In this document: positions 12,711 to 31,434 of the stretch, piece by piece | How the letters are laid out: each line of letters opens with the position of its first letter | Position numbering within the stretch: position 1 is the stretch's first letter | Source of the DNA: Rotaria socialis | Lineage: Eukaryota | Assembly (NCBI GenBank): GCA_905331295.1 | Contig: CAJNYD010000529.1 | Coordinates: 62,001 to 93,434 of the forward strand | Direction: 5' to 3' | DNA length: 31,434 bases | Notes under the pieces: generated by a model | Databases searched by the model: none | What the model was told of the DNA's origin: nothing | What the model saw: the letters and a program-made list of their open reading frames with translations, nothing else | Made by a program: the position numbers and the translations under genes

Positions 12711-13929
12711 ATGGCCAATTACGGACCGGCATATGGAACACTTGCCAGCAATCTCGTAAAGGTGAGGATGCTATTTTTATCAGTAATAAGAAGTTTTTTC
12801 TTTGGAGCCATGGATACAATTATTCTACACAGAACAAATAGATGAATGAAGAAAAATATCTATTTCATAAACTAATTATTATATCTATACCAATTCTTTT
12901 GAAAAATAGGCATTTTTTTTACGGCGAAATTGAATTGGGTCCTTATTTCTTAAATTCTACGTGAGGCTGCATCACTACATGTACATATTTTTTCTTTTTT
13001 CCCCTTCGCTATGTGGCGATGGATACGAATGATTTCTGAATTTAAAAATTTTACATCTTACGTTAGCGGTTACAAGTAACACTGTAATACATATCCGTCC
13101 TTAAAGTGCAAGCGTTACCATCACTAGATCAATCTTATTTACTTTTCTGATACTAACATAACAAGAAGTCGTCTGTTTGTTACTGTCTCTTTGTTTTTTT
13201 ATTTTCTTTGGAAATTTTCATTGTTCTGATATATTCGAATATATGTGTAATGCTTAGATAGCAACAAAACGTGATCCTAAACTTGACAGCCAAGCACAAG
13301 CATGGATCGAGTTAGTAATCGCTGAAAAATTTCCCAATTGTTCTTATGAAGATGCTCTCCGGAATGGTATTATCTTGTGCAAGTATATTAGATTTTTTTT
13401 TCTATTAGTCAATTCGATTCTGTTCTTTTTATATTCATGTTGATAAAAGACTTATGAACAAACGTCAACCAAATGCTATCCCAAAATTTACCACAACAAT
13501 TGGAGGATTTAGATCACGAGAAAATATATGTTTCTTTCGTGAGTATAGAAATTCTCTATTATAATTATTGTCAAATTGATACATATGAAATAGAAAATGC
13601 GGCTCGTGCCTACGGCTTACGCGATCTAGACTTATTTCAAACTGTCGATCTATTTGAAAAACGTAACATAGCTCAAGTAACATATTGTATAATTGCACTT
13701 GCTCGACAAGTAAGTACAGCATTTGTTTCTAATAGAAATCTGTTGATTTGGGACTTCTTTTTGCTTCTAGGCTCAAAAGAAGAGTTTCAATGGACCTATT
13801 CTTCGAACAAGCACGGCAGAATTTTGCCCATGTGAAGTCACTGAAGAACAACTATTTGTTAGAAAAAGTCTAACCGGATTTCTAGACGAAGGGTTGATCA
13901 AATTTGCTAACTCTTCTAAGCTTTCGTAA
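12711..13929 (+). CDS. Transgelin / muscle protein 20 / calponin-homology protein, ~179 aa; exons 12711-12761, 13258-13382, 13450-13538, 13594-13709, 13771-13929
   Basis: Spliced translation MANYGPAYG...KRDPKLDSQAQAWIE...YEDALRNGIILCKLMNK...FRSRENICFFQNAARAYGLRDLDLFQTVDLFEKRNIAQVTYCIIALARQAQKKSFNGP is a calponin-family CH domain. All introns are GT-AG and the total of 540 nt is in frame. Confidence 0.9.
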
Positions 13930-14335: not shown

Positions 14336-15335
14336 CAGGGTTGCCAGCCGTACCCCATTTGGGGGTACAGTACCCCCTTTTGAGCCTTTTGTACCTCAAA
14401 AACAATTGTACCTCTAAGGTACGCATTTTGTACCCCATCTGCATTTTTCAATGTTACGACTACTATCATCCATATTTTGGTTGAAACTAAGAAAATTTCT
14501 GTCTCTTTATCCGACATTTACTATTGATAAAGATGTGAAGCGTCAATTATATTGGTTGGCTGCTAATGGTCATGTTTATGAAGAATTCAACAATGACATA
14601 TGCAACGAGTTTCGTGATGAAGATAATCTCATTCACAAATCGACGACCGAAAATCATGAAAGAGAAGTGGAATTTCGGTCTGATCAATTTTGGGCTTTTC
14701 TTTTTGTAAAGTCGAAACCAATGTGTATTGAAATGTACAAAATTATTTCTTATGTGTACTCAATTCCTTGCTCGAATGCATTTGTTGAAGGCGTTTTTAA
14801 TCAAAGAAAAAGCGCATGGACAGCCAGTCGTAATTTGACAGTGAATGAAACGATAGCTGCTGAATTGAAAATCAGATTTAATAGTACTATGACATGTGAA
14901 GATTTTTTTCTTTTGCTCAAACACAACCGCAACTGATAGAGTGTGGCAAAAAGCAACAAAAATACAGTTTCGAAAAAAAGCGTGCAACAGTTAGTGTAAA
15001 TATAAATCGAGAAGGTTCGCTTTGAGTAAGCATTGTTTTATTATGATTGAGTTGAATATATGTATGACAAAATGAAATTTTATTGTGAACATATTTATTA
15101 GAAAATAAAGATTTCAATTTGAAAGCTAGACTTTATAGTAAAACGAAAAACTGAGAATGCCCCTTCCTGATTGAAAATAGTTTTCGAAATTGATTTCCGC
15201 AGCCGATGACCAGTGTGAAAGATGTAAACTGCGTACCTCATGAATGTACCCCATTTACAACTGAGTTGTACCTAACGTGTACCCCATTCCGAAATCAGTA
15301 TACCCCATTTGGGACCTGAACAGCTGGCAACCCTG
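14336..15335 (+). mobile_element. Internally deleted hAT DNA transposon (1000 bp)
   Basis: TIRs CAGGGTTGCCAGC(C/T)GT at both ends. Perfect 8-bp TSD ATTACGAA (14328-14335 and 15336-15343). Subterminal GTACC(CC) repeats. Internal transposase remnant. Confidence 0.95.
14451..14936 (+). pseudogene. hAT transposase C-terminal dimerization-domain remnant
   Basis: DQFWAFLF...YKIISYVYSIPCSNAFVEGVFNQRKSAWTASRNL..ETIAAELKIRFN matches the hAT dimerization motif (S.P.S.A..ER.FS). The N-terminal and core regions are missing. Confidence 0.85.
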
Positions 15336-16596: not shown

Positions 16597-16689
16597 GATT
16601 ACTCTCATCGTTGCAATAGCCGTTCTCGTTATAATACACCTTGCTCCTTTTTTTTTATTGCGTCTTTAGCATTTTTATTTATTTTCTTC

Positions 16690-17892
16690 ACTGTTATTTT
16701 TTTTTTCTATCGACTCATTGTCATCATTACTGTCATTTCATTTGCTTCGACGTCTAAAATATATGGTGTTTACAACTCAATCTTTTTCTCTTCCGTTCTC
16801 TTTTCTTCCAACATTGAGGAGACACTTTTCAAGAGCGAGTCGAATTTTGCCTTCACTTTCTCGTATTCACAAAAAAAAGCAATTTTCAATCCCAGAAAAT
16901 AAAATTTTTCAAAGTTCCTCGACTGAAGTTGCAATCACCCGATTCTAAAACACACAGAGACAAACTAAACACAAAGTTTCAGCACGCCGCTTATTCAAAT
17001 GTCTAAAAACAGCGGCAGTTCATCTAGAGCAAGGCATCCAGACAGCAGCACTGTAAGCAATTTTTGTTTTAATTTTAATTTCTATAGTTTTCTTTCAATT
17101 TTGTAAACAAGGTCTACTCTTTAAGAAAATAGGCCCAGTCCCTGTTCCCCGGGGGAAGAACTATTTTAGGTTTCGTAGCTTTTGTGAAGCTCAAAAGCAT
17201 TAAGTCGCTTACCTATTTTTTTAGAGCATATCTCACATGTCTATGTTGCATTCTCTGTCAGTTCACTTGTTTATATTTACTACCTGTCTTTTGGTATAAA
17301 ATTCATTCGTTTGAAAATTGATCGGAACTATACTAATAATGAATATCATGTTTGCTTCGAGTGTTAATCAATCATCACTGAGCCCTAATTGTATCAAATA
17401 GTTGCTGATAACTACTTCACAGATATCTCTCGTATTTTGAAGCACGCGAATATGTTTCTAACACATTAAAGCCGAGCTACTCTACTGAAAATTTTCAAAT
17501 ACTATTTACTTTCCAGCTACTCTTAGGCTATATCCATCCGCCCCATAAAATTCATAAGAAAATTTTCAAGTTGAAGCATTGCTTATATTACACGCGACTA
17601 GATATGAGTTACCTCGGAGAATGACTATCCTTTGCTACAAATTGATGTTCACACTTGTGGAGAATAAAACAAACACGACCAATTCTGGTGACCCAATAGG
17701 GATTTTGATTTAGAGATTTTTCAATTTAGAGATGTTTTTAAATAAGCAATATGCTGTTCAAGTCAAAATCAAACAGAATCTCAGCTTTCATATCATTCTG
17801 TACTTATGCTTCATATTACCCTTGACTAAAGACCTCTTATTCATTAGTTTTACAACCGAGATCTCATTCAAATGTGCTGTATTTTGACACCA
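16690..17892 (+). repeat. Copy 1 of a direct duplication (promoter, exon 1 and intron 1 of the large gene); copy 2 at ~30320-31434
   Basis: Near-identical sequence 17070-17892 vs 30680-31434, with one ~72-bp indel at 17183-17254. Weaker similarity upstream. Confidence 0.95.
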
Positions 17893-20800
17893 CGTCTGGC
17901 CACCAGATTCAAAATATAATACAGATATTCACTATCTTATGCTTTTTTCCCGTCTTCTCTTGTTTATGTGCCTAGTCATTCTAATTTATATAGAAATTAA
18001 ATCCAATATTCTCCTTTAACATTCTTTTATTCTTTTATTCTCTTAAACTCTGATAGCCAAAATCAGTTCTCTGAGTTCTTGATAAGCAGAATTAATTGTC
18101 GAAAAGATTCTCATAAGTAATATTGATTCTGTAAGCATCTGGTTACCAGAATGTACTTACATATACTATGGTTAGCACTAGGGTACTTGGTTTGAATGGT
18201 AAAATATTTTTTGGGTAGAAGATGGTGTTGAACTATGATCCATCAGCCTTGTCGTATATTAAAAATGTCCCCAAATTGAAAATTCCTATTTGGTCACCTG
18301 AATTGACCGTATTTGTTTTATTCTCCACAAGTGTGGATATGGTATAGAGATGTGTCTGGAGATTTCAATTTGCAGCAAAGGATAGCCAACCGATTAAATG
18401 GTAGAGTTAAATTAATTATTCGTGTTTTATCGCCTCTAGTTTGTGAAATATAGAGGAAATAGAATGATAGGTCATTGATTCAACACAATCGAGGGTAAAC
18501 TTTGTCAACAACGACTGCGAGTCTATTGCTCAATTGTATTAGCTTCCTAAGAAAAATAACAGATTAATCCTGTAACACCAGTAATAATTACACATTATAG
18601 GATCATCAAACAAAGCCATCGTCAGTGAACAAATACGATGATGCTGATTATAGCCAAGCATCTGAAAGACACTCACGAAAAACGGAAGCAAATGAAAGTA
18701 AGTAAAGTTTTTAAGTTGATGGTTATATAGGAGTCTTCTTGAAATGATGTTGAGTTTAAAAAAAAAACTTTCTGCTTTAATAATATTGCTTCATCAAAAT
18801 TGGAATAAATACACACAAGGCGTCGAACTGATGTAGGCATGCAAAAATGCAATTATTATCTATTGCTGACTATTTTATTTTTATCGGCATGATCTTTAAT
18901 TGTTTCGCAAGAGTTTTCCTTCAATATAGATGTAAACATCATAGAGTCAATAGAATCCTATTAGAACTGATATTTTTTAGACAATATCACAGTCAATAAC
19001 TTCATTTCTTTTGGAATAATGTTTTTCTTCAATGTTGAGATCCTTCTCACGAATTGTGATTCGAGGTTTTTCGGTAGAACATACCTCTCTGTAGATCGTA
19101 TCATCAATGACTCAAAAAGGAATAAAAATGTCTCAATAGCATTTTTTATGCAATGGTAATCTCTAAAACTAGGAGGTGTGCAGAGCCTTTTAAGTTTCTG
19201 TCTTCTAGGCGAGTCCCGAACCTATAAAATAAACTTTGCACAAGACAGCAAGATGTTGTAGAGGGTATTGAAATCATTTATTTTTCGTGAAAAACTATTT
19301 TCGTGTGAGTCAAATTTGGGTAAAAGACAGAACCTTCAAAAGTTCTATGGATCTCCGTCTTTTTTACAGAGCAGTAGATGCCTGAGTGAACACTTCTCAT
19401 ATATTGAGCATCTAAATGAGATGAGCACTCGTCAGATAGCACCAAAAATTTCTGTTGGATGTAAGTTATATCAAAATTGAATTTTGAATTTGATTGACAA
19501 AATGACCCTCAATTTAAAATTTTGATACTAACATGATTTAAGGTGCTATTCACGCTTAATAGCCAGTATTGTAGTGGTTCTTCCGGCCTATCCTGTCAAT
19601 ATGTACTGAACAAGTAACGTTCATCGACATCGAAAGTCGATTCAATGAACCCTAGGCTGGCAGTGTTGAGGGGAATAAATGCATTGACAGGACAGAAAAT
19701 CGGTTGTTTGTGCCAGCAGTTGGTGATGAGATTTTCAAACAGACCTGTAAAGGGAGTGGAAATAAGTGAAACCGAGGTAAGAATTAGACGAAAATTAAAG
19801 GTTTCAAGTAAAAGCACTGAAAGTGAAGACGAAAGACAGACAAAATGGGACTCAAAGGTCCTTAAGGAGGGAAGAGGCTGAGTCATACCTAGCCATACAA
19901 CTATATGGTTAAGAAGCTTCATGATGGTTAGTTCAAATTTCCGTAAGGGGATCAGCTTACCCCTCCACTGACTCCATCTCCAGAGCGGGCTGTTTCACAT
20001 GGCCATGTCATGCATTCACCATGGTTTGTGCCGGAACAATACCCTTCGTGTCATAGAAATGGTCATTTGTATCACAGACATGGTCGCTTGTGTCATTGTT
20101 ACAGGCAGACACAGGTGAATTACGGTTTCTAGACCCTATCCTTTCAGTCTAGGGGAAAACTAAGAGCCAGACGAAGAAAATCATAACAATAGCAATTTAT
20201 AGATCTTGTAAAATAATATTCATTCACTTTCAACGATGTACATCCTTGAAATACCTGATTGTCTTGGGCTTGTTTGAGAAAATATTGTTATAATCAAGTG
20301 ACTCTGCAGAGAGCACTTCAATAGCCAATATGGTTACTATCATCAGTTATCTGTGTACTCGTAGATGCCTAGTCACAACAAAGATACAGCTTTTTCTCTA
20401 TTCATTATAAAAGAATGACATCTTCGTTTGATTATGAATCGCTCAGGTCAACAACGCACTAATTCAAATTCATCATCGACTGAAGGACAAGATTGGAAAT
20501 GTCGCCAATGTGGTTACACAAATAACGATAGTAATAAATCGTGCGAAACGTGCAACGCTCGTAAACCAATGCGTCCACGTATTGAAACACGGCCTAGTTA
20601 TGTAGAGAGGAGTCCCTCATCATCGTCATCTAATCACCGTACTCCTTCTCCAGAAGATGAAAGTATACCTAATCGACCAGATCCAAGAAGTTCTGTACGA
20701 GATCGGCGACGCAGTTCCAGCGGTGAACACGTAACGGAAAAAGATAGTTCTTCCGACAGTGAAAAACCGTACTATAATTCGTCCACTCAATTAAGAAGTC

Positions 20801-23800
20801 ATAGAAAGTCTCAAAATCCAGATGCACCGAACGAAAAGGAAAAAAAAACGCAACCACATGAAGGCAAGTATTCGGCCTCAAGGTTACATACGATTAAGTA
20901 TTTCCTTATAATTTTAGCCTCGTTTCATGAACAATCTTCAACTAGAGGATCTTCATCTTCAGTTAGGGACGATAGCAAAATTTTCGAAGACGACTATGAG
21001 CATAAACCCAAGAAGTCTACTGCAAAAAAGTCTTCGAGTGGTAATCAAAACTATGATGATGAACTGAGCAGTAGCAAGATGCACTCCAGTTTGAGCTCTT
21101 CACCAACACCACCGCCAGATTATTCGTCATGTATTGCTTCACAAAAGCAGCAATCGACCCTTCTTCGATATGATTCAGAAGGTGAACAATCATCATTGCA
21201 ATCTGTTGGACTATCTTCATCGAAAAATAAAAGTTCTTCGCATGATGTAAACAATCCTTCTAATTTGAAGCAGGGCTCTTCGAGGGATGATGAACGAGAT
21301 GAACCTCTTTTAACAAAGACATCTGATAGACATGTCCCTTCCAAAGGATCTTCAAAACACATTGCATCTGGTTCATCTTTATCGGTCGATGACAAAAAGG
21401 GATCCCGCGTCTCTGCATATGACGATGATCCTTATCAATCATCTGCAACAGCTGCCAAACCAATGAAACCACCTACAAGTAAGTATCTAATTACTATCTG
21501 AAGCCTGTATCCATAAATCATATTCTATTCAATTGCAATCATTGCTGTGTTTTTCATAGTAATATCGACAAAAATAAAGCTAACATAAATTCATTATCTA
21601 ATTTATCACATGAAATCATGAACCCAGGCTAATAAATCTTTCCCTACCCCATCTATATTATTTCGGTGAATCTACCAATAGTATATCAACATTTTTACAG
21701 CAAATGAAGATGCACTTACTGTAAATGAGAAGAAACCTTGAAATGCTATCTGGTCTCTATGACGAATATATTGACCATTTAAGTATGCAAAATATTTCAA
21801 TATCTTCAGAGTTTATGCATCAAAATGACTAATTTCTTAGAGCTCCAGATACGTGCGATGCACTATTATTTTAAGGATTTCATATGTGTAAAAGAGTTTC
21901 AATTAAATGTCTAGAGATAACATCCGATTCAAATGGATTTCCTGAAAGTATGCTGCCCTTGCACTGAGTGTTCTGAAGAATAGTTTCAATTACAGCTACT
22001 TGATATCCACACAATTTTATTTCTTCGTTCGAACTATAGTCACGACTTAATCGTGTTCAACTTGTAATGAGCTAGCCGAAATGCGACTCTTTTTTGATAA
22101 ATCTTCAAAGCACATCTATTTCATCAATTCAAAACATTGTTTTTCAGGTCCGTCATCGTCAAAAAAATCAAACAAAAGTGAACCTATCATAGTTTATATA
22201 CCAGATTTGCCTGTTAACATAGATAGTAATCAATTACTCGAAAGTATGATTCGGCAATGTTTAGAACTTAAACATAAACAAAAAATAGTCGATGTTAAAT
22301 GTGATGCCAAATTAGGCATTGGAATTGTCTACTTACATACTGATGAAGATAAGCATAATTTAACTAATATTATCGAAAAAATTATAATTGAAACATCCAA
22401 AAATACAATGGTATCATTTGTCGATGAACTGGAACTAGTATCTTATATTGTTGTTGATAACATGGATACAAAAGATCTTCCATCAGTAGATGACATATGT
22501 CGACGATGGGTTCATCTGTACAAGGTGCAATCGGAACCACAATGTGAACGACTATCTGCTCAATTTCCGAACATCTATCGAATAATAACACATTCATTAG
22601 ATGAACTACTCCCTGCAATGTCAACTAAGGAGTTCTCAATCAATAAACAGTTCGCAACTGTTTACTTCCGTGCTGATTGTGCTTTCTTTGAAGATTTACC
22701 ACGAACGGCAACATTAGATCGATTGACCGACGCAATCAGTAGTCAAATCTCTGATAAATACATGTCCAAAGAATTAATACATATACAGTATAATAAAGCA
22801 AATGGTAATGCTATTGTGCTGACATCAGGAAGAGCTCGAATATGGGCCCTACATAGTTCAATTCTATTAGATGGGCGCTCTTTTATGAAAAAGGACAGCC
22901 TTGCTTGCCGCTTATTGATACGCACCGTACCCAAAGGGGTGTCAACTTCACTTATCCGAAATCATAAAATGTTTGGTGATGCTGTTGTTAAAATATTCCC
23001 TAGCGATGAACATGTCGTTCTCGAACTTTCTGATCGAAGTATTTATGAGAAGTGTATTGATCAAGGTGTTGTACGCATTGATCAACACTTATTAGGTATT
23101 GAAGCTTATACGTTTACAAATAATCCTGAAAATAGTGAAATTGATGCTGAAAATTGGTATGAAACAGAGATGGTTGATCATAAGCCCGATATAATGCCAT
23201 TTATTTCTAATCCTCAACATCCTATTTTTCAATTTAAATGGAATCCAAGAGTGTTTTTAGAACAACTCCGTTTGTGGACATCGAATGAACGTAAGACTAA
23301 TGAAAAAGATCAAGTTAAATTTGAAAAATTATGTAATCTGAAACGTCATCTATTACGAATGACAGTTATGTTGAATACAATTGGTGTAGTAAAAAGAGGC
23401 TTTTATCGTATAGGTGACAAAGAAATCAAATTAAAACCAGATCGATTAAAAACAATTCTCTATGATCATAAGTCAAAATTGCAGCGTGGTAAGACAATGT
23501 CGTTATCGCATGCTACAGAATTCCCGTATAAATCTACATCAGTTAGTGTAGTGAATGAAGACTGTTTGATAGTTTATAAGAATCTAGTAAATAAAGGTTG
23601 CCGACCAGTTGTTCTTAATATGGCTAATGCTACCAGTCCAGGTGGTGGCTACAAACGAGGAGATGGAGCTCAAGAAGAAACACTTTTTCGTCGCTCGAAT
23701 TATTTCCAAAGTCTCGATCTTGAGTTAGATGATGGGAAACCAACAGCACGCTTCTATTGTAATTCAAATTGTGATTTAGAACCATTAGGTAAAGGTGATC

Positions 23801-26800
23801 GAATGTATGAAATGGACGAATTCGGGGCAATCTACACAGCAGGATTGACAGTTTTTCGGCAGCCTGAAGATACTGGCTACACTTTCATGGATATACCAAT
23901 GTACGATGTATGTGCCATTGCAATGGCTGCCTATCGTGATCCGAAAATTGAAAACGACCTTCTCACTTCCAAATACTCTCTTGGAATGCGAAAAAAAATT
24001 GAAAATATATTTGCTATAGCTTACCATCAAAAACATGATAGCCTTGTTCTATCTGCACTTGGTTGTGGTGCATTTAGAAATCCGCCAAAACATGTTGCAG
24101 CAATATTCAAATCAGTTATTGAACAATATGCTGGATATTTCAAATACATCTATTTTGCTATTGTGGATGATCATAATGCAGGCCAAGACTTGAACCCAAC
24201 TGGAAACTATCGTCCTTTTCATAAATTACTCGATAATTTAGAAGAAGAACCAAAACGACAATATCTTGTAGACATGATGATTGGACCTTGGCGAATTTTA
24301 GATCAAAAAACTAGTAAAGAAATAACGTTAAGTGATATTCGAATCCGCTATTTGGATCCATGTTTTCATGGAGGAAAATGCAACGATTTGAACACTGAAC
24401 AACATTGTCGTGAATTTTCACATCCACCTTTATGTCCTTACACAAATGATACAGCTCCATGTAAAAAGAAAAATGATACTCAGCATATGCTTTGGTTCAG
24501 ACATCGTGAAAAATGTTCATATGGTGGAGAATGTGAATTAATAGAAACTGATTTTATGCATTCGAATGAATTTGAACATCCTGAATTTTGTCGAGATGGT
24601 GGTCGATGTGAAAACATGGGTGCTGAACATCTTAAAGCTTATCAACACTTGCCGCTATGTAAATATCGTCGTGAATGTGTCAGTTTCAATAGTGGATCAG
24701 TTGAACACTGTCAAAGCTACCGTCATTGTGTACCGATGTGCCGCTTTGGTCATTTCTGTACCAAATTTCATGACGAAAAACATTTAAGCGAAGAAAACCA
24801 TCCTTTTTTACAACCATGTTCATTTACTCCATTTCATTGCCGACAATACAACAGTTTTGGTGAGGCAAAAGATACAAAAACATTAGGGATCGATGTTCAA
24901 AATCACTGTTTTCACTATTCGCATGTTTGCCGGTACGGCCGTCAATGTCGTGATAAATCAGACATTCATTGGAAAACTACAATTCATATTGCTCGTAACA
25001 TCTGTTCATTTGGTGATAAATGTGCAAAAACATATGATGAAGATCATTTAAATTCGTTCTCACATCCAGGTATAGCTGACATTCGCCTTTTATGCAGTTA
25101 CCCAACGTATAAATGTCGTGATAGGCGAAAACCTGAACATATTATAGAATATCGACATCATGGTGGATACGACAACAGTGGAGTTATCGGCTGTTTTGGG
25201 CAGAACCACAAAATTGATTTTGTTAAAAATCAAGAAAGAATTATTCAAACAATAAATACCTATGTGAAAGATACACATTCCAAACAGCTATCTGTATCGT
25301 TAGAAGTTCAAAAATGGGTTAAGGGTCTACAGCCTATTCATCGATGTTCCAAATTAATTTTCGAATCGATACTTGTACATGGCCATGTCATGTCTCGTGA
25401 TCATATGGAAAATTTAAAAAGATCCTATTTCGCAGCTCAAGCTGTTCAAGAACATAAACGTGTGCGTGGAATATTTGATCGATATAAAATGGCACCTATC
25501 GAAGATAATGCTAAAGAATATATTAAAGCTATTGTTTCTCTGGAATACGGTAAAAAATATGCTGCTGGCGACACAACAGCATCAGGTGGATCTGATGATA
25601 ATGACGATGTAATACGTAGAAAAGAAAGAATTTTACACACTTTAATCAAACCAGACGAACTTAATATTATAAAACAATGCGCCATTGATATTGCTGAAGC
25701 CTCGTGGAATCTTCATAAAGCTCCAACTGGTATCAAATATGAAACTGATAAAGCGTTAGGTACTGATAAACATGTTTTTAGTATTCTTGGGCCACATCTC
25801 GGTCATTATTATGGAGATATAATTCTTGTATTTAAAAGCGAAGTAATGCTACACCCAGACGCCAATTTCTCTCCACAAGCAGGCACATCATTTGCAAGTG
25901 GTAGTACATTTAAGCATCGACCATGGGTTAAAGATCCTGGTACTGAACCTGAAAGAATAAAATGTTTTCATGAATCGAAATTGCATTGTGCTGTACCGGG
26001 ATACGAATATGCAGCAGCAGCAGAACTTATCGTTATATCAGGATTACTGAAAAATACAATAAATGTTGATGTGCGAGACATTATGACTCGTTGGAAGAAA
26101 GTTGATTCACATCAAGTACTCGAGGCGCATCTACCTCAATTGGTACCTCTCGATTATATTGAAGAAGTATACATAGCAAAAAATCTATTTGATTCGCTGA
26201 CTCCAGCAGCACAAGAGTCAGCAAAGAAAATTTTCCGTGATTCACTTCATATTACCAAGCATGAAATTAACTTGACTGATACCGGTGGTGGAGGTTCGCA
26301 GCCATCGGATAAGAGTCGTGCTGACTATCAAGATTATGTGATGAGTGCTTTAATAGAAAAATTTAACAAACGAAAGGACCGTACAAGACATTTGCATGGC
26401 TCTGTCCTCACTCTAGCACCAAGTGCATTTACGGATCACATTATGTTACCGCCAACAATCGGTCAAGCGCGTACTCAATATCTTCGAACTCATAAACAGA
26501 GCTCGAATTCCGACGACATATATATTTATTGGGAAACAATGTATGGTGATATGATGGTCACTCTTTCGGATGAACGAATCGATCCTGATAAGACTCAACC
26601 GGATATTCAATGTCTTGTTTGTTATATTGCTGAGAGACCATCAACTATAACTGCCACTTACAGTGAAACATATTCATATTTAAATGCTGGCGAACCATAC
26701 AGGCATAGTGTTATAAAGATTACTGGTAAATGTTCGAGTAGTTCACGTACATTTCATCGTGGTGCTAACATTGAAAATTTTCTTACCTACTGTCTTAAAA

Positions 26801-27948
26801 TCGAGAAAAAAACGGGCCAAGCAACACTGTCACACGCTGGGCCAAACAGTATTTATTGTTATGAAACGATAACGTGTAGATTTTCGAAAACAACACTTGA
26901 TTTAAGCAAATTAGACTACGTTCACGTAAGTGCTGGCTCGCAAAAAGTACCAATCAGAAATTTAACTATTAACTTCGAAAAAATTCCCGATTTACATCCA
27001 TTATTCGATAGAAATTTCAAGCGAGGGGATGATCCATTTCATAATAGGAAATCGCCTCATCTACGTAGCCGCTCTCCATCTCCCAATATTGCACAATCAA
27101 CTCGCGATATGCCTCCATCGTTTATTCGAAAAGCTGCGAATGCTGTTGCTGGTCTTTTTGGTTATGATGCTGATGATAAAAGCCTTGGTCCCTGCCCCTA
27201 TTCAATCAATTGTCTATTTCAAGGAGAATCGCAACATATGAAAAAATATTCTCATCCTTGTCCATACTCTGAACTTTGCACTAATAAAGAGAAAGAGCCT
27301 AATCTAACACATGAGCCGCACCGAGCAAAACAATGTCCATCTAAGAGTTCTTGTCAAAAACTTCATGATCCTGTTCATCGAGCGCAGTATCGGCATCCAG
27401 GCTACCCTGACTTTCTTATTCCATGTCAAGATGGATCGAGTTGTCATAATAAAACATCGGATCATCGAATAAAGTATTCACATGGTGAGCAAGGAGAAGT
27501 AGTTCGAGATAAAATACGTAGAACGGTATGCCAATTTGGAACAGAATGTCGGAATCAGGATGACAACGATCATTGTTCTAAATATTCACATCCTGGTGAA
27601 AATAGAGTTAAACATGCGCGCAGTTCAAGTCCTGAACGAATCGCTTGTCGCCACGGAAGCGATTGTCGCGACAAAAATGATCGTCAGCATCGATCAAAAT
27701 TTTCACATCCAGATGAACGTGAATCTTCACCTAGTTCAAACTCTGCACGAATCACTTGTCGGCATGGAAGCGACTGTCGCGACAAAAATGATCGTCAACA
27801 TTGCTCAAAATTTTCACATCCGGATGAAGATCGAAATCAAGGTCATAGAGGCTCAAATCAAGATAAAACGCCATGTCGACATGGTAATAAATGTTTTGAT
27901 AAAGATCCTCATCATCGCTCTAAATATTCGCATCCAAACAAAAAATAG
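16999..27948 (+). CDS. ~2309-aa multidomain ADP-ribose protein: RanBP2 ZnF - Ser-rich linker - RRM-like repeats - TIGR02452/DUF2263 PARG macrodomain - 10 PBZ-like fingers - DarT-like ART domain - beta-rich domain - 8 PBZ-like fingers; exons 16999-17052, 18601-18697, 20447-20863, 20918-21478, 22148-27948
   Basis: Splice phases are compatible at every junction (0,1,1,1; 6930 nt). Motifs: WKCRQCGYTNNDSNKSCETC (RanBP2); VLNMANATSPGGGYKRGDGAQEETLFRRS and LVLSALGCGAFRNPP (microbial PARG); repeated C-x5-C-x6-8-H-x5-H(P). The 5.8-kb last exon is solid; exons 1-2 are inferred from splice signals and from conservation in the paralog. Confidence 0.85.
17623..18387. mobile_element. MITE-like element with long TIRs in intron 1 of the large gene
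   Basis: GACTATCCTTTGCTACAAATTGA...CACACTTGTGGAGAATAAAACAAA..CCAATTCTGGTGACC (17623-~17750) is the reverse complement of 18260-18387 (...GGTCACCTGAATTG...TTTGTTTTATTCTCCACAAGTGTG...TCAATTTGCAGCAAAGGATAGCC). TSD not clear. Confidence 0.8.
19650..20154. mobile_element. Possible degenerate non-autonomous TIR element in intron 2
   Basis: GC-richer block bounded by imperfect inverted ends CCCTAGGCTGGCAG / CTTTCAGTCTAGGG (piggyBac-like CCCT start), but the flanks TGAA/GAAA are not a clean TTAA. Confidence 0.3.
27637..27828 (+). repeat. Recent intragenic tandem duplication (111-bp period) of a PBZ finger
   Basis: RI(A/T)CRHGSDCRDKNDRQH(R/C)SKFSHPDE is encoded at 27637 and 27748 with high nucleotide similarity. 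Confidence 0.9.
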
Positions 27949-28834: not shown

Positions 28835-29610
28835 TTAAAATTCATCTACGTTAACTCGCACTTCTGGATAGGCGTGCATTTTTGCGACATTGACAATCTC
28901 TTCGGTCTTATATGATGGATAAAGACCTGTTTGACCATTAGTTTTATCTGATCCTTTTGAAAATCCATCCCAATGATTTCCTTCTGTACCGATGATATCA
29001 CCTCGTTGAAAGCTAAATTCATTTGGCCAAACAGCTTTATTAGGTAGAAGAGCACGTTGATTATGAGCATTTTGTCCACCAAAATAATAAACATCATCAA
29101 GCGGCTGCACACGCCATGCACCATCAACTAATCGTTGTTGCATGATTTCATAGGCAACACGACAAATCTAAATTTAAAACAATAACAATACATCTTTCAA
29201 AATCTTTTCATTAGTTGCTAAGATTATCGCATAAATTCGAGATCTTCTCAATCAGACATTTCGCCTGCAAAATTTATTTGCTTTTAAGAAAAAGTATCAT
29301 ACCTGTGACGAGAATGTACAAACCAAATAATCACATAAAGAAAGAAAATGAATATCCAATAGTACACCTTTCAATGATTCTGTTCCGTATCTTGTATTCA
29401 ATTGGGCAGATTTTGCTACAGCTGTATCACCATAGAATATGTAATTTGGAAATCTAATTGTTAATAGAGAAATAAAAGAAATTATTTTCTATGGAAAATA
29501 AGCAAACAAACAATTCTTACTTTGAACGCGCATCACTAAAAACGGCCGGTTCATCAGTAGCTAGAAAAACTCGTTTTGTAAAATTTACATTTGGATTTTA
29601 ATATTCATAA
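28835..29610 (-). pseudogene. FUT8: 3' fragment of alpha-1,6-fucosyltransferase; exons ~29610-29521, 29453-29303, 29167-28835
   Basis: KRVFLATDEPAVFSDARSK|FPNY...[40 protein letters not shown]...LDDVYYFGGQNAH followed by an SH3 domain (GNHWDGFSKG..GLYPSYK). In-frame TAA at 29600-29598. No upstream FUT8 exons (HVRRTDK) are visible in the window. Confidence 0.8.
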
Positions 29611-30319
29611 CTTATAAAACTTGAAAAACATACAGTTGTCATTATTTGTGTTGAAAAATTGGTTCAGCCTACCCAGCGCCATCCGATGGAATGGTACATT
29701 GAAAGATGCATAGTTTTTCATGGGCTGTCTTCTGACACTAAAAACGTTTATGGAGAAAATCTTCATAGTATACTTTTATGAGCAAAATATAAAAACATTG
29801 CAGAAAAAAGTATAAGTTTTTGAAAAAAAATTTAAACGTTTCACTCGATTTATAATTTTCAGTCTTCTTCTATGATGGCGGATTTAATAGATATAATTAA
29901 TATACGTTAAAAAATATAAAATTAGAGAGTTCTTGGATAGCAATATATACTACAGTTAAGTGTTAACTCGAATTCACTTAAATTAATCAAATTATAATAG
30001 CAGAATATCCGATGATATATTCAAAAATCTATTTATATTTTTTTATAGGGTTTCCAAAAAACAACAAGAGGCAAAGATTTGTATTTGAGAATAAATTAGG
30101 GTGTCTCCAGACAAGCCCATCCACTTTGTGCCGGGGACATTTAGCCATGCTAGTCTTGCATTCCTGGAGGGTATGGGTGTGTACGTAGGTATTTGAGTCG
30201 AAAGAAGATTCAGACTAGCAGCCATAGCCACATCCTAGTTTCTGTTGCCATTGTGGGCCTTATTTGTGTCTTTTACTGTTTTAGTTTTTGGATAGGCTTT
30301 TATTTTCTTCGTTCTTATC

Positions 30320-31434
30320 TGTTATATCAACTCATTGTCAATAATTCTGTTTCGGGACTCGCTTTTACGACCAAAATATACGGTGTTTGCTAACCCATAT
30401 CGTTTTTCGTGCGTTCTGTTGTTTTTCAACACAGATGTGAAATTTTGTAAGAGCCATTTAAATATATTCTTCACTTTTTCGCATTTAGCAAAAAAGAAAA
30501 CAATTCGAATCCTAAGGAGTGAGATTTTTATACTTTCCCACTGAAATAGTGCCTCGTATTCACGAACACACATAGAAACAAGGCACAAAATTTCAGCCCA
30601 ACGCTTGTTCAAATGTCTAAAAACAGCAGCAGTTTATCTAGAGCAAGGCATCCAGAGAGAAACATTGTAAGTAGTCTGAATTTTAATTTTAATTTCTATA
30701 GTTTTCTTTCGATTTTGTAAACAAGGTATACTCTTTAAGAAAATAGGTCCAGTCCCTGTTCCCCGAAGGAAGAACTGTTTTAGGTTTCGTAGCTTTCTAT
30801 CAGTTCACTTTTTTATGTTTACTACCTGTCTTTTGGTATAAAATTCATTCATTTGAAGATTGATCGGAACTATACTAATAATGAGTATCATGTTTGCTTC
30901 GAGTGTTAATCAATCACCACTGAGCCCTAATTGTATCAAATAGTTGCTGATAACTACTTCACAGATATCTCTCGTTTTTTGAAGCACGCGAATATGTTTC
31001 TAACACATTAATGCCGAGCTACTCTACTGAAAATTTTCAAATACTATTTACTTTCCAGCTACTCTTAGGCTATATCCATCCGCCCCATAAAATTCATAAT
31101 AAAATTTTCAAGTTGAAGCATTGTTTATATTACATGTGACTAGATATGAGTTACCTCGGAGAATGACTATCCTTTGCTACAAATTGATGTTCACACTTGT
31201 GGAGAATAAAACAAATACGACCAATTCTGGTGACCCAATAGGGATTTTGATTTAGAGATTTTTCAATTTAGAGATGTTTTTAAATAAGCAATATGCTGTT
31301 CAAGCCAACATCGAACAGAATCTCAGCTTTCATATCATTCTGTACTTATGCTTCATATTACCCTTGACTAAAGACCTCTTATTCATTAGTTTTACAACCG
31401 AGATCTCATTCAAATGTGCTGTATTTTGACACCA
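30320..31434 (+). repeat. Copy 2 of the direct duplication, including the left arm of the intronic MITE from 31165
   Basis: Aligns by eye to ~16690-17892 up to the window end (GTATTTTGACACCA). Confidence 0.95.
30613..30666 (+). CDS. Exon 1 of a tandem paralog of the large PARG/PBZ gene (gene continues beyond the window)
   Basis: MSKNSSSLSRARHPERNI|GTAAGT vs MSKNSGSSSRARHPDSST|GTAAGC at 16999-17052. Same 54-nt length and phase, followed by a near-identical intron. Confidence 0.65.

What the first reader, a model, noticed from the sequence alone, without database searches (positions are those of the whole stretch)
16999..27948. Single animal protein that appears to be ADP-ribose writer, reader and eraser (fused DarTG-like system)
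Seen: one spliced ORF holds an intact microbial-type PARG macrodomain, two arrays of PBZ-like fingers and, between them, a domain with ART-like motifs. It is preceded by a RanBP2 finger and RRM-like repeats. Known: PBZ binds poly(ADP-ribose); TIGR02452/DUF2263 proteins hydrolyse it; bacterial DarT (ART) pairs with a macrodomain antitoxin, DarG, in anti-phage defence; PARP14 combines RRMs, a hydrolytic macrodomain and an ART. Inference: this is an independently assembled, self-regulated ADP-ribosylation machine for immunity or DNA-damage/desiccation response. I do not know of a characterised protein with this architecture.
Basis: partly seen in the sequence, partly recalled or inferred. Interest (0 to 1): 0.9.

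Follow-up and report, generated by a model that had tools for sequence, protein, structure and literature searches.

The report
Rotifer ADP-ribose writer-eraser fusion enzyme
Bdelloid rotifers and scattered protists carry a giant protein that joins an intact-looking ADP-ribose-removing enzyme to an unannotated domain predicted to fold like bacterial ADP-ribose-adding toxins, so one protein likely both writes and removes this chemical mark.

Summary
A five-exon gene (2,309 aa) is recovered, exons 1-2 by homology to Rotaria sordida. All enzymatic parts lie in one 5.8-kb exon. The bacterial-type PARG has an intact GGG-X7-QEE. The central domain has no Pfam family, folds confidently (pLDDT 95), and its top 8 of 48,161 structural matches are all ADP-ribosyltransferases (ARTs): SopF (Z 11.7), DarT and OspC3 (10.6), CopC. 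It keeps an OspC/CopC-like His-Phe-Glu triad with E-x-H in about 95% of 265 homologous domains.

Corrections: it is a family (9 or more loci in Adineta vaga), not a single protein. The same domain order occurs in protist transcriptomes, so it was not assembled in animals. It is not DarTG: the hydrolase is PARG-type and SopF is the nearest fold. The fingers lack the PAR-binding Tyr-Arg of APLF, the RRM call is inconclusive, and a lectin-like beta-sandwich was missed. PARG plus PBZ in A. vaga is in print; my searches found no report of the ART domain. Activity, substrate, and whether the PARG erases the ART's own mark are untested.

The parts
16999..17052 (+). Exon 1 (ATG, 18 codons)
   Evidence: 7 of 18 residues identical to R. 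sordida P0002 start; GTAAGC donor
18601..18697 (+). Exon 2
   Evidence: In register with P0002 residue 19; AG/GTAAGT; phase 0 to 1
20447..20863 (+). Exon 3 (RanBP2-like finger, Ser-rich region)
   Evidence: tblastn of orthologues; GC donor; intron skipped in X3 contig
20494..20553 (+). RanBP2-like C4 zinc finger
   Evidence: PF00641 E=0.039; pattern in 29 of 354 stored family proteins
20918..21478 (+). Exon 4 (low-complexity Ser-rich linker)
22148..27948 (+). Exon 5: one open frame holding all folded domains and the stop
   Evidence: Open frame 22051-27948; acceptor TTTTCAG
22177..23100 (+). Conserved N-terminal region, possibly RRM-like (not established)
   Evidence: 77% identical to R. sordida, 57% to A. 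vaga; family profile vs RBMS1 RRM E=0.11
23248..24285 (+). Bacterial-type PARG macrodomain; signature GGG-X7-QEE at 23641-23679
   Evidence: PF10021 E=1.2e-20; PDB 3sig/5zd series; coordinates
24361..25161 (+). First CCHH (PBZ-like) finger array, 10 pattern matches
25198..26370 (+). ART-fold domain with helical insertion; H1441 (25339), D1577 (25747), F1587 (25777), Y1598-G (25810), H1698, E1702 (26122), H1704 (26128); protein numbering of the 5-exon product
   Evidence: AlphaFold2 pLDDT 95.2; structure searches; conservation; coordinates
26395..26982 (+). Concanavalin-A/galectin/CBM66-like beta-sandwich
   Evidence: Model residues about 410-605, Z 10.5-11.6 to CBM66, levanase, galectin; PF12248 in 3 distant homologues
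27193..27933 (+). Second CCHH (PBZ-like) finger array, 7 pattern matches
   Evidence: (APLF PBZ E=2.4e-5)

Best explanation
The gene encodes one 2,309-aa protein in which a bacterial-type PARG with an intact catalytic signature is fused to a domain predicted to be an ADP-ribosyltransferase of the SopF/OspC/DarT fold, and the protein likely works as a resettable ADP-ribose switch. Shown: domain order, one-exon fusion, PARG signature, conservation of the His-Phe-Glu and E-x-H residues. Predicted: the ART fold. Inferred: the ART domain cleaves NAD+ and adds single ADP-ribose units; the zinc fingers and N-terminal region tether it to a polyanion (nucleic acid or ADP-ribose chains); the mark is O-linked (a nucleic-acid end phosphate or another ADP-ribose), the class of bond that PARGs cleave, so the PARG domain resets it. 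Inferred role: a conflict or stress enzyme, shared with protists, that entered bdelloids once and expanded.
For: Top 8 of 48,161 chains are SopF, DarT, OspC3 and CopC structures, Z 9.6-11.7, 170-215 residues aligned, rmsd 3.5-4.6; first unrelated row Z 8.4 over 103 residues. Foldseek best hit SopF E=4.7e-4. Conservation in 265 domains: H 235/249, D 256/261, F 249/263, E 255/263, H 252/263. CopC uses H137-F183-E325 with H327 and D172 (PMC9239266, passages); the best local stretch of the family profile against OspC3 puts E-x-H on E326/H328 (not significant by itself). Both motif sets are intact in 117 of 144 copies with a full PARG. D. radiodurans PARG did not remove Glu- or Ser-linked mono-ADP-ribose (PMC6445106, passage), whereas human PARG removes it from DNA-end phosphates (PMC5725667, passages), so a shared mark would be O-linked. 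Family members also fuse to Arg-ART, PARP, ARH and WWE domains. Bdelloid domains form one side of a branch, support 100 in two trees.
Against: No activity was measured. The nearest folds, SopF and OspC/CopC, modify proteins, and those marks are not PARG substrates (OspC3's resists ARH1, ARH3, TARG1 and MacroD; PMC8883491, passage). The two domains are not obligate partners in cis: 15 of 144 copies have an intact ART set with a changed PARG signature (several are isoforms), 11 the reverse, and P0005, P0007, P0009 and P0035 carry an Arg-ART in place of the PARG. Sequence profiles show no significant link to OspC or DUF3626, so residue equivalences other than E-x-H are by motif order, by eye. Nucleic-acid binding is unproven: no RRM_1 match in 24 of 24 members. 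The DNA-end result is for human PARG, not a bacterial-type one.
Confidence: 0.45

Rival explanations
1. Mark editor: the ART domain modifies a protein target as SopF and OspC do, with the beta-sandwich as target-binding module. The PARG domain separately degrades PARP-made chains at the same site, replacing a removable mark by a lasting one.
For: SopF ranks first in all three searches (Z 12.0 vs 10.9 for DarT). The triad and E-x-H are OspC/CopC-like (PMC9239266). ART plus beta-sandwich persists in copies without PARG. Loss of either signature is tolerated in cis. Single gene models fuse the domain to an Arf-like GTPase (P0283) or EF-hands (P0265), echoing the ARF and calmodulin activators in the matched structures.
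Against: By motif order the place of OspC3 D231 (40 of 42 Asp in OspC proteins) holds Ala or Ser (261 of 262), which argues against OspC-type arginine chemistry. The Z gap to DarT is about 1. The fingers lack the canonical PAR-binding residues, so recruitment to PAR is doubtful.
Confidence: 0.3
2. NAD+-consuming enzyme with no lasting macromolecular mark: an NADase or signal generator, or a Tpt1-like phosphotransferase, with the PARG domain handling the ADP-ribose product.
For: CopC with calmodulin was assayed for NAD+ hydrolysis (PMC9239266, figure legend). Tpt1 is the next ART-fold match, Z 7.5. The near-invariant D1577 sits, by motif order, where CopC D172 lies; that paper proposes D172/D230 activate the acceptor and the ribose 2'-OH.
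Against: All eight best matches are transferases. A polymer hydrolase and many tethering fingers fit a macromolecular substrate better (inference).
Confidence: 0.13
3. The ART-fold domain is a non-catalytic NAD+ or ADP-ribose binding module, and the protein is only an elaborate PARG.
For: 19 of 241 scored domains have lost at least one of five key residues, 11 of them beside an intact PARG. No activity data exist.
Against: The catalytic-position Glu is kept in 255 of 263 domains from bdelloids and distant protists, also in copies that have no PARG.
Confidence: 0.1

Closest known systems
SopF (Salmonella; contains DUF3626 per PMC6682159)
   Same: Best structural match: Z 11.7-12.0, 210-214 residues, rmsd 4.1-4.2. 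A DUF3626 protein shows the same motif order ending in E-A-H.
   Different: 12-13% identity; no PF12294 match; hhalign not significant. SopF is a single-domain injected effector, activated by ARF, that modifies ATP6V0C. No fused hydrolase.
OspC3 / CopC arginine ADP-riboxanases
   Same: Z 10.1-10.6; His-Phe-Glu triad, E-x-H, and an Asp 10-11 residues before the Phe (PMC9239266).
   Different: No PF06128 match. The D231/D230 place holds Ala/Ser by motif order. A beta-sandwich follows the domain instead of ankyrin repeats. No hydrolase partner.
DarTG toxin-antitoxin system (including the single-chain Thermosipho DarTG, 7omu)
   Same: Z 9.6-10.9 to DarT structures; writer and macrodomain eraser are linked.
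   Different: No DarT Pfam match. The eraser is PARG-type (Glu pair), whereas DarG is TARG1-like with a catalytic Lys (PMC8883491, passage). The domain has a helical insertion of about 110 residues. The eraser is not obligate in cis.
Adineta vaga bacterial-type PARG with PBZ repeats (PMC4245714, citing Slade et al. 2011)
   Same: Very probably this family: PARG plus PBZ repeats in a bdelloid.
   Different: The passages seen mention neither an ART domain nor a beta-sandwich. The 2011 paper was not held.
PARP14 (macro-PARP; architecture recalled)
   Same: RNA-binding-type modules, a hydrolytic macrodomain and an ART in one animal protein.
   Different: Its ART is a PARP domain; no PF00644 match in the window protein. 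Different macrodomain class and domain order: analogy, not homology.

Membership tests
Bacterial-type PARG (DUF2263/TIGR02452) | PF10021 match over cut-off | tested here: met
   74.9 bits vs 23.5
Bacterial-type PARG (DUF2263/TIGR02452) | GGG-X6-8-QEE signature (PMC4245714) | tested here: met
   GGG-X7-QEE at 23641-23679
Bacterial-type PARG (DUF2263/TIGR02452) | Hydrolyses poly(ADP-ribose) | not testable with these tools
   Needs assay
ART superfamily | ART fold | tested here: met
   Predicted model pLDDT 95.2, pTM 0.92; top 8 of 48,161 chains are ARTs
ART superfamily | Conserved His in the first core strand and Glu in the catalytic strand | tested here: met
   H1441 and E1702 lie in predicted strands and are conserved 235/249 and 255/263; no residue-level superposition was available
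ART superfamily | NAD+-dependent transfer | not testable with these tools
   Needs assay
DarTG | DarT family sequence match | tested here: not met
   No DarT row for the window domain or 26 homologues scanned with it
DarTG | DarG/TARG1-type macrodomain partner | tested here: not met
   The macrodomain is PF10021 PARG-type
DarTG | Physical sequestration of writer by eraser | not tested
DarTG | ADP-ribosylation of DNA bases | not testable with these tools
   Needs assay
SopF / DUF3626 | PF12294 or profile-level homology | tested here: not met
   No Pfam row; hhalign probability under 1% against 1 and 7 DUF3626 sequences; SopF itself was not compared by sequence
SopF / DUF3626 | Shared fold over the catalytic domain | tested here: met
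   Z 11.7-12.0
OspC/CopC ADP-riboxanases | H-F-E triad and E-x-H | tested here: met
   H1441, F1587, E1702-x-H1704; H and F placed by motif order
OspC/CopC ADP-riboxanases | Both essential Asp residues (CopC D172, D230) | tested here: inconclusive
   First Asp matched by D1577; second place holds Ala/Ser; register is by eye
OspC/CopC ADP-riboxanases | PF06128 match and C-terminal ankyrin repeats | tested here: not met
   No match; a beta-sandwich follows instead
PBZ (PAR-binding zinc finger) | PF10283 match over cut-off | tested here: met
   35.7 bits vs 22.7, 7 stretches
PBZ (PAR-binding zinc finger) | Tyr-Arg after the second Cys (APLF Y386/R387; PMC6264785) | tested here: not met
   0 of 17 fingers here; 3 of 1,344 C-x5-C fingers in 120 homologues have C-[YF]-[RK]
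RRM | RRM profile match or fold | tested here: inconclusive
   E=0.11 to RBMS1; RRM_occluded E=0.026 in P0194; RRM_1 in 0 of 24; region not folded
PARP14-like macro-PARP | PARP catalytic domain PF00644 | tested here: not met
   No match in the window protein

The most novel reading that the evidence does not exclude
An undescribed eukaryotic branch of the SopF/OspC/DarT transferases, spread across distant protists and expanded in one animal group. It is catalytically active, ADP-ribosylates nucleic acid or protein as a cell-intrinsic defence, and carries its own PARG as the reset: the first animal enzyme of this toxin class.
Probability: 0.4. Interest if true: 0.9.

Novelty: new variant of a known kind. 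Interest (0 to 1): 0.8.

Why it matters
Solved members of this ART branch are bacterial: DarT in phage defence, and SopF, OspC and CopC as effectors against host immunity. A eukaryotic family with the catalytic residues conserved from protists to an animal would be an unrecognised class of ADP-ribose writers that Pfam cannot see. It gives a soluble 390-residue domain and a built-in candidate eraser for direct assay. It could show what such enzymes did outside pathogenesis, and it names a writer for the many bdelloid bacterial-type PARGs, so far described only as hydrolases.

Tried and rejected
No whole genome was held, so copy number in this assembly was not counted. No RNA holder was listed for the window's own sequence. 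Directly joining exon 1 to 20447 is out of phase; I first doubted exon 1, then found exon 2. No viral contig matched the single-protein patterns; 29 pattern matches in prokaryote genomes gave no confirmed relative; plasmid tblastn gave 3 weak hits at E 0.3-0.9, and the one examined was spurious. These searches see only close relatives. Sequence searches of the PDB with family profiles found no ART. Profile comparisons with OspC and DUF3626 were not significant. The viral fold library returned weak, partial matches, those with names mostly lectin- or tail-like. No DarT sequences were obtained. A. vaga locus numbers were not found as gene ids in the supplements held for PMC10809525 (1 file), PMC10665377 (4 files) or PMC12220480 (1 file, cut when stored), so stress expression is untested; uncut tables may hold it. 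Earlier-findings look-ups showed nothing. The careful tree did not finish; the quick tree is reported.
Full report
1. Observation. The window is bdelloid: the central region is listed as 100% identical to a Rotaria socialis protein. One open frame runs 22051-27948. Five exons (16999-17052, 18601-18697, 20447-20863, 20918-21478, 22148-27948) give 2,309 aa without an internal stop. Exon 1 is the best local match of the R. sordida orthologue's first 18 residues (4 of 300 shuffles as high). Exon 2 begins in register with its residue 19 and supplies the needed phase, though its score alone is weak (39 of 300). A contig of run X3, a related organism whose contigs are spliced, skips intron 3 and others cover parts of the ART region. 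Introns 1, 2 and 4 are not bridged. PARG, both finger arrays and the ART domain all lie in exon 5, so their fusion does not depend on the splice model.

2. Eraser. PF10021 scores E=1.2e-20. The domain aligns with T. curvata and D. radiodurans PARG, and the GGG-X7-QEE signature is intact. It is the best-conserved domain: 85% identical to R. sordida, 74% to A. vaga.

3. Central domain. It has no Pfam family, nor do the homologous domains scanned, and PDB sequence searches found no ART. AlphaFold2 on 25168-27030 gave pLDDT 94.6, and on 25198-26370 alone 95.2, pTM 0.92. Against 48,161 chains the top eight are SopF (Z 11.7, 210 aligned, rmsd 4.1), Thermus DarT (10.6), OspC3 (10.6), M. tuberculosis DarT (10.4), CopC (10.2), OspC3 (10.1), DarT1 (10.1) and DarTG (9.6). 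The next rows are helical designs at 8.4 and below, and Tpt1 at 7.5. Foldseek ranks SopF first, E=4.7e-4; the second look gives SopF 12.0 and DarT 10.9. The Z values are moderate, but the ranking is of one superfamily and covers the whole core, so I accept the fold.

4. Active site. In 265 domains (of 323 proteins with a hit; those outside 280-520 aa were dropped) conservation is H1441 235/249, D1577 256/261, F1587 249/263, Y1598 247/260, H1698 248/263, E1702 255/263, H1704 252/263. CopC has an H137-F183-E325 triad; E325/H327, D172 and D230 are needed for activity (PMC9239266, passages). OspC3 reads D177-x10-F188, F211-G, D231 and E326-x-H328; this family reads D-x9-F, Y-G and E-x-H in the same order. 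The best local stretch of the family profile against OspC3 lands on E326/H328, but at probability 0.6%, and all other profile comparisons are insignificant. The relation is therefore structural, and the family is distinct. By motif order the D231 place holds Ala or Ser (261 of 262), so OspC-type arginine chemistry is doubtful; this register is by eye.

5. Reader. Seventeen CCHH fingers match by pattern and Pfam PBZ passes its cut-off. None has the Tyr-Arg that APLF uses for ADP-ribose (PMC6264785, passage), and only 3 of 1,344 fingers in 120 homologues have C-[YF]-[RK]. PAR binding is possible through avidity (inference) but is not supported by the motif. The RRM call stays open.

6. Distribution. 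One search gave 163 proteins, 120 listed; every one with a species name is a bdelloid (Rotaria, Adineta, Didymodactylos), and 113 of the 120 have a PARG or part of one. Nine A. vaga loci appear. The 50%-cluster search found 380 proteins, 150 listed. Of 30 distant hits looked up, 10 have species names: Diphylleia rotans (4), Pharyngomonas kirbyi, Gefionella okellyi, Copromyxa protea, Naegleria fowleri, Cyanophora paradoxa and Madagascaria erythrocladioides; one more is an unnamed eukaryote and 19 are unnamed. Transcriptome contamination is possible for single records. PARG-fingers-ART is present in the first four genera, several from transcript assemblies, so the architecture predates or lies outside rotifers. 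In trees of 79 domains the 41 bdelloid-labelled rows (5 labelled by similarity only) form one side of a branch with support 100; deeper branches are unresolved and name no donor. One entry into bdelloids followed by expansion fits; transfer is favoured over loss only by the lack of other named animals in capped lists.

7. Coupling. Of 241 domains with all five key positions scored, 144 sit beside a full PARG: both intact 117, ART only 15 (including isoforms), PARG only 11, neither 1; 86 have no PARG, many being fragments, and 11 a cut one. The pair is usually kept, but the PARG is not an obligate antidote in cis; paralogues could act in trans.

8. Mechanism. I commit, at 0.45, to a resettable switch with an O-linked mark. 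The reason is chemical: a bacterial-type PARG did not remove protein-linked mono-ADP-ribose (PMC6445106, passage), while human PARG clears it from DNA-end phosphates (PMC5725667, passages). The main rival (0.3) is a SopF/OspC-like protein modifier whose PARG works on other enzymes' chains. That the domain is an active NAD+-using enzyme of some kind I put at about 0.85.

9. Prior description. PBZ repeats on an A. vaga PARG are noted in PMC4245714 (passages), citing a 2011 paper that was not held. Nine full-text searches (listings) and passages from eleven papers showed no report of this ART domain or of eukaryotic SopF/OspC relatives. Subscription papers, including a 2015 review of ART evolution that I recall, were not searchable. 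Writer-eraser fusions as a kind are known (single-chain DarTG 7omu; PARP14, recalled).

10. Verdict. A real, conserved feature; a new ART family in a new architecture; activity untested. New variant of a known kind, interest 0.8.

Noticed in passing
window 30299-31434 (+): Same-strand copy of the gene's 5' end (76% over 514 nt, then 97% over 639 nt, to 16678-17892), with an exon-1-like ATG at 30613: probably a tandem paralogue running off the window.
   Followed up: partly
window 6635-8777 (-): ADP-ribosylglycohydrolase gene (PF03747, E=1.4e-54); two spliced joints in run X3.
   Followed up: partly
window 10050-10934 (-): Arginine-type ART (PF01129, E=3.1e-5) just upstream of the hydrolase, covered by X3 contigs; no evidence that the two join. 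Three ADP-ribose genes lie within about 21 kb.
   Followed up: partly
P0005, P0007, P0009, P0035, P0343, P0060: Paralogues carry an Arg-ART (PF01129) instead of, or besides, the PARG: two different writer folds in one protein; P0009 groups with the window gene.
   Followed up: partly
P0283, P0203, P0265, P0248, P0306, P0045, P0087, P0229: The new ART domain is also joined to an Arf-like GTPase, LRR-Roc-COR, EF-hands plus PARP, WWE, ARH, RING, FN3 or TPR domains; single unverified gene models.
   Followed up: no
L009:1417-2262 and L011-L016: DUF3626 proteins of environmental bacteria keep E-A-[HQ]-[VI]-H-G and look like uncharacterised ARTs; no held paper has both 'DUF3626' and 'ADP-ribosyltransferase'.
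   Followed up: partly
window 27517-27522: A run X3 contig has 85 letters where the window has 4 (in-frame net +81), and an X2 contig departs at the same place; an X1 contig matches the window: length variation in a finger linker.
   Followed up: no
P0001: The public model starts at the internal ATG 20434 and reads through the GC-AG intron 20864-20917.
   Followed up: yes
window 446-1229 (+), 4252-4965 (+), 13458-13835 (+), 14418-14936 (+), 28835-29167 (-): Six1-type homeobox gene, RD3-domain protein, calponin-like fragment (recalled motif, no Pfam hit), weak hAT transposase remnant, FUT8 C-terminal exon.
   Followed up: no
PMC12220480 supplement, 6 PF10021 rows in the part held: Five of six A. 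vaga PF10021 genes are flagged as horizontally acquired and all six have read counts; whether they carry the ART domain was not determined.
   Followed up: partly
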